Shown: in pieces, positions 3,275-3,311 of the stretch | Position numbering within the stretch: position 1 is the first letter of the stretch | Layout: each line of letters begins with the position of its first letter | NCBI GenBank assembly: GCA_030390025.1 | Contig: CM059432.1 | Span: 64,296,001-64,360,000 of the forward strand | Length of the DNA: 64,000 nt | Source of the DNA: Squalus acanthias | Taxonomy: Eukaryota | Direction of reading: 5' to 3' | Notes under the pieces: model-generated | What the model saw: only the letters and a program-made list of their open reading frames with translations | Database searches by the model: none | What the model was told of the DNA's origin: nothing | Program-made: the position numbers and the translations under genes

Positions 3275-3311
3275 TCACCTGACGAAGGAGCAGCGCTCCG
3301 AAAGCTTGTGA
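3275..3311 (+). ncRNA. minimal hammerhead ribozyme motif
   Basis: tcac CTGACGA a ggagc agc gctcc GAAA gctt gtga: stem I tcac/gtga, stem II ggagc/gctcc, palindromic AGCT stem III. Confidence 0.75.

What the first reader, a model, noticed from the sequence alone, without database searches (positions are those of the whole stretch)
3275..3311. Dispersed family of minimal hammerhead ribozymes with visible covariation
Seen: the core CTGANGA-A-stem II-GAAA-palindrome-stem I' recurs at 14-51(-), 2940-2976(-), 3275-3311(+), 34095-34131(-), 34653-34689(+), 43569-43605(-) and 58440-58477(+). A second family sits at 8976-9012(-) and 23333-23369(-). Stem I changes in compensating fashion: tcac/gtga, ttac/gtaa, tac/gta, agtt/aact. 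Stem II does too: ggagc/gctcc, ggggc/gctcc, aggtc/gacct, with loops of 3-5 nt. Only position 7 of the core varies (C, T, A). Stem III is reduced to a palindrome (AGCT or ACGT), and every copy has an extra A after CUGANGA. Established: Penelope-like elements carry minimal type I hammerheads thought to cleave as dimers. Inference: these are catalytic RNA motifs of two PLE lineages, invisible to the ORF track, which could cut host transcripts that read through them.
Basis: partly seen in the sequence, partly recalled or inferred. Interest (0 to 1): 0.75.

Follow-up and report, generated by a model that had tools for sequence, protein, structure and literature searches.

The report
Hammerhead motifs of shark Penelope retrotransposons
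These short repeats are minimal hammerhead ribozyme motifs sitting in the 3' end fragments of two Penelope-like jumping-gene families in shark-like DNA, a known arrangement, and most copies here are predicted to be folded shut by their own mirror-image arm, so they likely do not cut host RNA.

Summary
The nine motifs are real and at the stated places (9 of 9; null mean 0.01 per shuffled window). They are seven insertions, not nine. Four are head-to-head inverted pairs, each with a target-site duplication and a 30-43 nt 'tail' on one arm only; F also has a duplication. Both families lie downstream of remnants of a Penelope-type GIY-YIG endonuclease (34336-34431 +; 23391-23660 -). Family 1's remnant is 90% identical to a shark RT+endonuclease protein. 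This is the minimal hammerhead of Penelope-like elements (Cervera and de la Pena 2014), which already reports the extra nucleotide and opposite-strand pairs. Corrections: covariation within family 1 is one two-sided change (28/500 shuffles), and most of the signal comes from pooling two unrelated families. The 8976 copy is not palindromic. Two damaged copies were missed. Cutting of host RNA is unlikely: six listed motifs are predicted to be locked in long hairpins, and published minimal hammerheads are inactive as monomers. Cleavage was not tested. The scan found the same kind of element before in two other genomes. One lead remains: two insertions start at the ribozyme's 5' edge.

The parts
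14..51 (-). Family-1 minimal hammerhead, insertion D (CUC triplet, two G-U pairs in stem II); the element's 3' end runs off the window start, its 3' UTR continues to about 282
2883..3120 (-). Insertion A, inverted tail-less arm, with the hammerhead at 2940-2976
3131..3398 (+). Insertion A, full arm: 3' UTR, hammerhead, AATAAA, stem-loop region and tail (3369-3398); flanked by a 15-nt direct repeat at 2874-2888 and 3398-3412 that overlaps the arm ends
3275..3311 (+). Family-1 minimal type I hammerhead: stem I 3275-3278/3308-3311, core 3279-3285, extra A 3286, stem II 3287-3299, GAAA 3300-3303, predicted cut after 3307 (CUU)
8916..9152 (-). Insertion F, family 2, single tail-less arm with the hammerhead at 8976-9012 (stem III ACAU, not palindromic); 12-nt direct repeat at 8904-8915 and 9153-9164
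23333..23369 (-). Family-2 minimal hammerhead, insertion G (ACGU, GUU triplet, A-U as first pair of stem II); 3' module with tail runs to about 23236
23391..23660 (-). Remnant of a Penelope-type GIY-YIG endonuclease (CxxC, then C, C, H, H around the VY..YIG motifs) directly upstream of the family-2 hammerhead; the endonuclease end and most of the 3' UTR are missing
   Evidence: Pfam GIY-YIG E=0.008, below cut-off; 32% to P0005, E=1e-12
34042..34335 (-). Insertion B, inverted tail-less arm, with the hammerhead at 34095-34131
34336..34434 (+). Last 32 codons and stop of the family-1 ORF (C-terminus of the endonuclease), 27 of 30 residues identical to the RT+endonuclease protein P0005
34435..34778 (+). 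Insertion B, full arm: 3' UTR, hammerhead at 34653-34689, tail from 34743; 13-nt direct repeat at 34032-34044 and 34779-34791
43483..43680 (.). Insertion E, short inverted pair whose junction lies at the hammerhead's 5' edge: intact motif 43569-43605(-), 5'-cut copy about 43603-43634(+); 14-nt direct repeat at 43469-43482 and 43680-43693
58312..58530 (.). Insertion C, short inverted pair whose junction lies at the hammerhead's 5' edge: intact motif 58440-58477(+), U4C copy about 58399-58436(-); 12-nt direct repeat at 58300-58311 and 58525-58536
56321..56466 (.). Family-2 inverted pair without a complete hammerhead (the + arm begins in loop II; the - arm carries the tail)

Best explanation
The motifs are minimal type I hammerheads in the terminal module (pseudo-LTR) of two endonuclease-positive Penelope-like retrotransposon families, left here as 5'-truncated insertions that are likely dead. 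Shown: each motif lies in the sense strand downstream of a 3' UTR; one copy per family follows a GIY-YIG endonuclease remnant; A, B, C, E and F carry 12-15 nt direct repeats; A, B, C and E interrupt older repeats and consist of two head-to-head arms, only one with the 30-43 nt tail. Inferred from published work on the anole Poseidon element: the element's protein nicks AT-rich DNA on both strands and starts reverse transcription at two internal sites about one tail apart, downstream of the hammerhead. My further inference: the two nicks each prime one cDNA, and the two truncated cDNAs are joined, giving the inverted pair. The template was likely uncut at this hammerhead, because the copies span the cut site. 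In the active parent elements the hammerhead is likely a weak ribozyme that needs a second copy (through the AGCU/ACGU palindrome) or the element's protein to trim element RNA. In these genomic relics it likely does nothing.
For: Descriptor 9 of 9, null max 1 of 100. ORF end at 34336-34431 matches shark proteins with RT plus endonuclease: P0005 27/30 identical, Pfam RVT_1 E=5e-9; the bridge P0001 has a weak Pfam GIY-YIG hit (E=0.0019). Endonuclease remnant 21 nt upstream of copy G. Direct repeats of 12 nt or more at 5 of 7 sites tested, against 1.15% of 2000 random position pairs. Left and right flanks of B, C and E map to adjacent positions of another repeat copy in the window, and A's map colinearly. 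Tail on one arm only in 4 of 4 family-1 pairs, as described in PMC8557442 and PMC11167929. The module is abundant in public runs: 2413-5435 contigs laid per run in 4 of 4 runs, with loose ends at 3398 that start with ATG and then diverge. In those runs core position 7 changes freely (C to T in 81% of depth in X9, 19% in X20) while its CpG partner G8 is not among the 40 rows shown (3 more rows hidden), which fits selection on parent elements.
Against: No cleavage assay. Covariation within family 1 is weak (28/500). The hammerhead is not significantly less variable than its flanks in the laid contigs (3 of 37 vs 33 of 184 positions, Fisher P=0.22). Core changes occur at notable shares: U4C 5.8%, 12.3%, 8.0% of depth in X1, X2, X9, and G12A 9.8% in X20. 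Family 2 has A-U in place of the usual G10.1-C11.1 pair. The double-hammerhead fold is not more stable than two monomer folds, and the cofold minimum is lower than both, in 9 of 9 motifs (nearest-neighbour energies only). Both Pfam GIY-YIG hits are below the curated cut-off. No direct repeat was found at G or at 56321-56466 with the edges tried. No full-length element, no RT domain of either family and no tandem pseudo-LTR pair lies in the window.
Confidence: 0.9

Rival explanations
1. The motif has a hammerhead's sequence but serves in these families mainly as a folding or protein-binding element (or is a vestige), and cleavage is not part of the transposition cycle.
For: All copies span the cut site, so the templates were uncut there. 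Hammerhead mutants of the anole element still insert in vitro and no RNA-seq reads ended at its cut site (PMC11167929). Core changes U4C and G12A reach 6-12% of depth in some runs. Naiad and most Chlamys elements lack canonical hammerheads (PMC8557442).
Against: Both unrelated families keep the whole core, the UH site and (except F) a palindromic stem III while their stems differ completely. The anole motif does cleave with protein, and C3G/G8C partly rescues it. This rival is compatible with the Penelope origin and competes only with the catalytic step.
Confidence: 0.3
2. The dispersed copies act as active ribozymes that cut host pre-mRNAs or other read-through transcripts.
For: The family is abundant in runs guessed to be RNA, and predicted shark host proteins include exonised pieces of the element; one septin model (P0012) runs through the hammerhead module. 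Abundant copies could pair in trans through the palindrome.
Against: For 6 of 6 listed motifs in inverted insertions both stems have pairing probability 0.000 in context; stem I is 0.000 for D and F and 0.034 for G. F has lost the palindrome. Single minimal hammerheads showed no cleavage (PMC4209133). Same-strand copies in the window lie kilobases apart. No host exon was identified in the window, and the runs are contigs that cannot show RNA ends.
Confidence: 0.05
3. The copies are non-LTR retrozymes (non-autonomous tandem repeats with canonical type I hammerheads that make small circular RNAs).
For: Short, dispersed, hammerhead-bearing, non-coding for the most part; a 2026 preprint reports retrozymes in one chondrichthyan and derives them from Penelope pseudo-LTRs.
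Against: No head-to-tail array of hammerhead units in the window; arms are inverted; copies B and G carry ORF remnants; stems are minimal (3-4 bp stem I, open ends).
Confidence: 0.03
4. Chance resemblance: an ordinary repeat end that happens to fit a short descriptor.
For: Copies of one repeat are not independent, so the shuffle null overstates significance; there are really two independent sequence families. Rfam finds no hammerhead.
Against: Two unrelated families both fit core, stems, extra A and UH, and both sit at the same place downstream of a Penelope-type endonuclease, where the literature places such motifs.
Confidence: 0.02

Closest known systems
Minimal hammerheads (min-HHR) in pseudo-LTRs of metazoan Penelope-like elements (Cervera and de la Pena 2014, PMC4209133)
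   Same: [quoted passage not shown]
   Different: Host is shark-like; no shark name was found in the searched supplement files (file 1 not searchable). Helix II is 5 bp (7-8 bp in Schistosoma). Family 2 has A-U rather than G10.1-C11.1.
Neptune/Nematis-type EN+ Penelope-like elements (Craig et al. 2021, PMC8557442)
   Same: C-terminal GIY-YIG endonuclease with CCHH residues, CX2-5CxxC linker in the family-1 relative P0005, 5' truncation, adjacent inverted copy, 30-40 bp tail at one end.
   Different: Clade not tested by RT phylogeny; no microsatellite targeting at these sites, four of which lie in older repeats.
Poseidon element of Anolis carolinensis, PAc (Frangieh et al. 2024, PMC11167929)
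   Same: Hammerhead followed by an AC-rich region with two element ends one tail apart; copies span the cut site; mostly AT-rich target sites.
   Different: Other clade (no linker zinc finger). In PAc the ORF starts inside the hammerhead; here an ATG follows the tail end, and whether it is the ORF start is untested.
Animal non-LTR retrozymes (PMC7229834; bioRxiv 10.64898/2026.07.22.740005)
   Same: Type I hammerhead in a short mobile unit related to Penelope pseudo-LTRs.
   Different: Retrozymes are head-to-tail arrays, with canonical helix sizes in the PMC7229834 cases; these copies are inverted or single and some carry ORF remnants.

Membership tests
Minimal type I hammerhead of Penelope-like elements | Core CUGANGA ... 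GAAA ... UH in type I order with helices I and II | tested here: met
   9 of 9 listed motifs; 2 further copies are damaged
Minimal type I hammerhead of Penelope-like elements | [quoted passage not shown] | tested here: met
   A in 10 of 10 aligned copies
Minimal type I hammerhead of Penelope-like elements | Palindromic helix III remnant allowing a dimer | tested here: met
   8 of 9 (AGCU, ACGU); F has ACAU
Minimal type I hammerhead of Penelope-like elements | G10.1-C11.1 pair (highly conserved, not absolute) | tested here: inconclusive
   G-C in all family-1 rows, A-U in both family-2 rows
Minimal type I hammerhead of Penelope-like elements | Compensatory stem changes within a family | tested here: inconclusive
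   1 two-sided change among 5 family-1 insertions, 28/500 shuffles
Minimal type I hammerhead of Penelope-like elements | Self-cleavage (as dimer or with protein) | not testable with these tools
   Needs an in vitro assay; laid runs were contigs
EN+ Penelope-like element | C-terminal GIY-YIG endonuclease with CCHH upstream of the pseudo-LTR | tested here: met
   Remnants at 34336-34431 (C-terminus only) and 23391-23660 (motifs and CCHH); Pfam hits below cut-off
EN+ Penelope-like element | RT in the same ORF | tested here: inconclusive
   No such RT in the window; present in the family-1 relative P0005; no close full-length relative of family 2 was sought
EN+ Penelope-like element | 5' truncation, adjacent inverted copy, 30-40 bp tail at one end, target-site duplication | tested here: met
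   4 of 4 family-1 pairs have tail and duplication; F has a duplication; G and 56321-56466 gave none
EN+ Penelope-like element | Tandem arrangement with two direct pseudo-LTRs around a full ORF | not testable with these tools
   No full-length copy in the window and no genome held
Neptune clade | CX2-5CxxC linker before the endonuclease | tested here: inconclusive
   Present in P0005 (C-X4-C-X2-C); G keeps CxxC at its truncated 5' edge; the motif is shared with Nematis
Neptune clade | RT phylogeny | not tested
   No clade reference sequences were fetched
Non-LTR retrozyme | Head-to-tail repeats, each with a hammerhead | tested here: not met
   No such array among the repeats listed or the 11 strong model hits

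The most novel reading that the evidence does not exclude
The shortest insertions (C and E) record the true 5' end of the element's RNA: the transcript begins at, or is spliced to, the 5' edge of the hammerhead; reverse transcription starts internally about 90-130 nt downstream in the same leading pseudo-LTR at the two tail sites, one on each nicked DNA strand; both cDNAs run off the RNA's 5' end. This would make ribozyme-headed inverted micro-insertions a regular product of Penelope transposition and give a genomic map of both RT start sites and the RNA start, with the hammerhead acting uncut at the head of the template.
Probability: 0.35. Interest if true: 0.45.

Novelty: new member of a known kind. 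Interest (0 to 1): 0.2.

Why it matters
As it stands it adds two shark-like families to a class described in 2014 for fish, coelacanth, frog and reptiles, and shows that such motifs can flag Penelope remnants that have no ORF. The anatomy fits the two-start-site model from the anole element and extends it, by inference, to a linker-bearing clade. If the 5' ends really cluster at the ribozyme's edge genome-wide, these very abundant copies would be a natural data set on where the element RNA starts and whether the hammerhead is ever cut, which is still open for endonuclease-positive Penelope elements.

Tried and rejected
Whole genome: none is held, so no genome-wide count, full-length element or host gene annotation. 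Rfam: no hammerhead family at E<=1; the microRNA hits come from inverted arms and lie below the gathering score. Direct Pfam scan of the 32-residue ORF end: no relevant family; the link needed relatives. RNA ends at the cut site: all 24 runs listed were contigs or of uncertain kind; 4 of 24 were laid, table 6 was empty and contigs cannot show ends, so this says nothing on cleavage or expression. Conservation of the motif against its flanks: not significant (P=0.22). Dimer energetics: not favoured by nearest-neighbour energies and not informative on catalysis. Direct-repeat search at G used an inner edge (23410) chosen before the endonuclease remnant was known and was not repeated at 23660; D could not be tested (window edge). 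Look-up of earlier scan findings by sequence: nothing. Literature: 'shark + Penelope + hammerhead' gave 4 papers, none on shark elements by title and abstract start; 'Penelope + shark + genome + retrotransposon + Neptune' gave 0. The third protein search was not used.

Full report
Observation. All 9 of 9 listed motifs are at the given coordinates. A descriptor (stem I, CUGANGA, 0-2 extra bases, stem II, GAAA, UH, stem I') returns exactly these 9 loci; 100 first-order Markov sequences of the same length gave mean 0.01, max 1. This null treats copies as independent, which they are not. A covariance model built from 10 copies finds 11 strong hits plus one at E=0.68; the two unlisted strong hits are a U4C copy at 58395-58440(-), which was in the training alignment, and a 5'-cut copy at 43594-43638(+). 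Rfam's hammerhead models do not score these motifs at E<=1. The 8976 copy has ACAT, so the palindrome holds in 8 of 9.

Nine motifs, seven insertions. The pairs 2940/3275 and 34095/34653 are the arms of two inverted repeats (238 nt with 3 differences; 294 nt with none). The copies at 43569 and 58440 also sit in short inverted pairs. Direct repeats straddle both edges of A (15 nt), B (13), E (14), C (12) and F (12); two other sites tried gave only 6 nt; 1.15% of 2000 random position pairs reached 12. The repeats overlap the arm ends by about 1-6 nt, so exact duplication lengths are uncertain. The two flanks of B, C and E map to adjacent positions of another repeat copy in the window, and those of A map colinearly; ORF pieces of two of those host repeats hit Pfam RVT_1 above cut-off. 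I recall these as CR1-type LINEs; that label comes from no call. In 4 of 4 family-1 pairs one arm runs about 30-43 nt further at its 3' end than the other.

Link to Penelope proteins. The 113 nt between the arms of B read, on the strand of the 34653 motif, as 32 codons and a stop. A search with this frame found 3 proteins among 8 candidates: a 125-residue protein with a weak Pfam GIY-YIG hit (E=0.0019, below cut-off) and two predicted Heptranchias perlo host proteins with exonised pieces. A search with that protein found 51 of 91 candidates at E<=1e-10; the named NCBI/UniRef hits are from H. perlo, Scyliorhinus torazame, Mustelus asterias and Chiloscyllium punctatum. P0005 has an RT domain, a C-X4-C-X2-C linker and the CCHH endonuclease, and matches the window frame at 27 of 30 residues. 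Thirteen of the 53 proteins then held were run by tblastn against the window. Besides B they hit 23391-23660(-), a second, divergent endonuclease (29 of 90 identical to P0005, E=1e-12; Pfam GIY-YIG E=0.008) that ends 21 nt upstream of the family-2 motif at 23333-23369. Other tblastn hits had E>=0.011 and were set aside. So each family is physically tied to its own Penelope-type endonuclease, and the host is shark-like. The linker points to Neptune or Nematis (PMC8557442); no tree was built.

Covariation. Pooling both families, 7 of 10 pairs change on both sides and no shuffle of 500 reaches the score, but the families share no sequence outside the core and were aligned on it. Family 1 alone, one arm per insertion, gives 49 of 50 cells paired, one two-sided change, two pairs with wobble changes and 28 of 500 shuffles at or above the score. 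This is consistent with the fold and is weak evidence.

Public runs. 24 runs of 11 studies hold the A arm in whole or part. I laid 4 of them on 3180-3400 at 80% likeness: 2413, 2745, 5435 and 4693 contigs. Loose ends at 3398 begin with ATG in all four and then diverge, which marks the element's end. Of 40 variant rows shown (3 hidden), 3 fall in the 37-nt motif: position 7 (free), U4C (5.8%, 12.3%, 8.0%, 0.2% of depth) and G12A (0.5%, 0.3%, 1.2%, 9.8%). The motif is not significantly quieter than its flanks (P=0.22). Summed depth rises 3- to 8-fold between 3260-3267 and 3276-3283, and loose 5' ends are listed at 3270-3279 in all four runs (36 contigs at 3276 in X9), with 372 further rows hidden; depth keeps rising further 3' in X1, X2 and X9, so ordinary truncation and edge effects explain part of it. 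These are contigs, and RNA status is a guess, so they show neither expression nor RNA ends.

Mechanism. Established for other elements: single minimal hammerheads do not cleave, dimers cleave weakly (PMC4209133); the anole element nicks both strands at AT-rich DNA, starts reverse transcription at two internal sites that delimit the tail, uses uncut RNA, and its hammerhead cleaves only with the protein (PMC11167929). The window's anatomy fits this: two 3' ends one tail apart, and copies that span the cut site. That each arm comes from one nick and one start site is my inference. In the inverted insertions a read-through RNA on either strand meets the antisense arm first; folding in 550-950 nt of context gives pairing probability 0.000 for both stems in 6 of 6 listed motifs, against 0.49-0.91 (stem I) and 0.99-1.00 (stem II) in isolation. 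D, F and G keep 0.006, 0.364 and 0.726 of stem II and at most 0.034 of stem I. Host-RNA cutting is therefore unlikely at these loci, though not tested.

The open lead. In C and E (2 of 4 inverted family-1 insertions, 4 of 8 arms) the junction lies within about 5 nt of the 5' edge of stem I; A and B start 144 to 317 nt upstream. No family-1 piece truncated downstream of the motif was found by blastn in the window, whereas family 2 has such pieces. Two cases are too few. An earlier scan note (e1-7858714) reports the same clustering in another genome and reads it as the RNA's start; I took that reading over as the novel case. It is an unchecked note, not support.

Known or new. The 2014 paper already describes the class, the extra nucleotide and the opposite-strand pairs. 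I found no paper on shark members in two searches and no shark name in the two searchable supplement files of the 2014 paper (file 1 not searched). The 2026 preprint includes one chondrichthyan genome with retrozymes and reports Neptune and Poseidon in five vertebrate classes; its supplementary tables were not seen and may list such elements. Papers as seen: PMC4209133 parts 1-2 of 4 and a supplement search; PMC11167929 parts 1-2 of 4; PMC8557442 12 of 29 passages; PMC7229834 12 of 22 passages; the preprint part 1 of 5, 8 passages and section 14. Verdict: a correct catch of a known kind; interest 0.2.

Noticed in passing
window 9011-9030 and 23368-23390, minus strand: In both family-2 copies the 5' strand of stem I overlaps a pyrimidine run followed by CAG, which looks like a 3' splice site; in Drosophila Penelope the intron ends at the 5' end of helix I (PMC4209133). 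Not scored or tested.
   Followed up: no
window 3399-3401 equivalent; table 7: Loose ends behind the tail start with ATG in all four runs; this may be the start codon of the next ORF in the tandem parent.
   Followed up: partly
P0002, P0003, P0012, P0023, P0030 and others: Many predicted shark host proteins carry exonised pieces of the family-1 endonuclease; the septin model P0012 also runs through the hammerhead module. These may be annotation artefacts.
   Followed up: partly
window 23391-23410, minus strand: Copy G joins the endonuclease straight to the last part of the 3' UTR; compared with F about 100 nt of UTR and the endonuclease end are missing, with a short CCAC shared at the joint.
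   Followed up: partly
window 152-234: A different repeat end (also at 9286-9367, 19221-19303, 33858-33933, 49205-49285, 52463-52540) sits inside the 3' UTR of insertion D.
   Followed up: partly
window 23743-24750 and 24546-24940: Tandem arrays of 59-nt and 63-nt units begin just upstream of the G endonuclease remnant.
   Followed up: no
window 53104-53211: Another hairpin-forming inverted repeat, hit by Rfam microRNA models below their cut-offs; not part of the hammerhead families.
   Followed up: no
window 11508-12574 (-), 10042-10291 and 62906-63155: GC-richer repeats with open frames that differ from the RT-bearing repeats; possibly DNA-transposon remnants (recalled impression, untested).
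   Followed up: no
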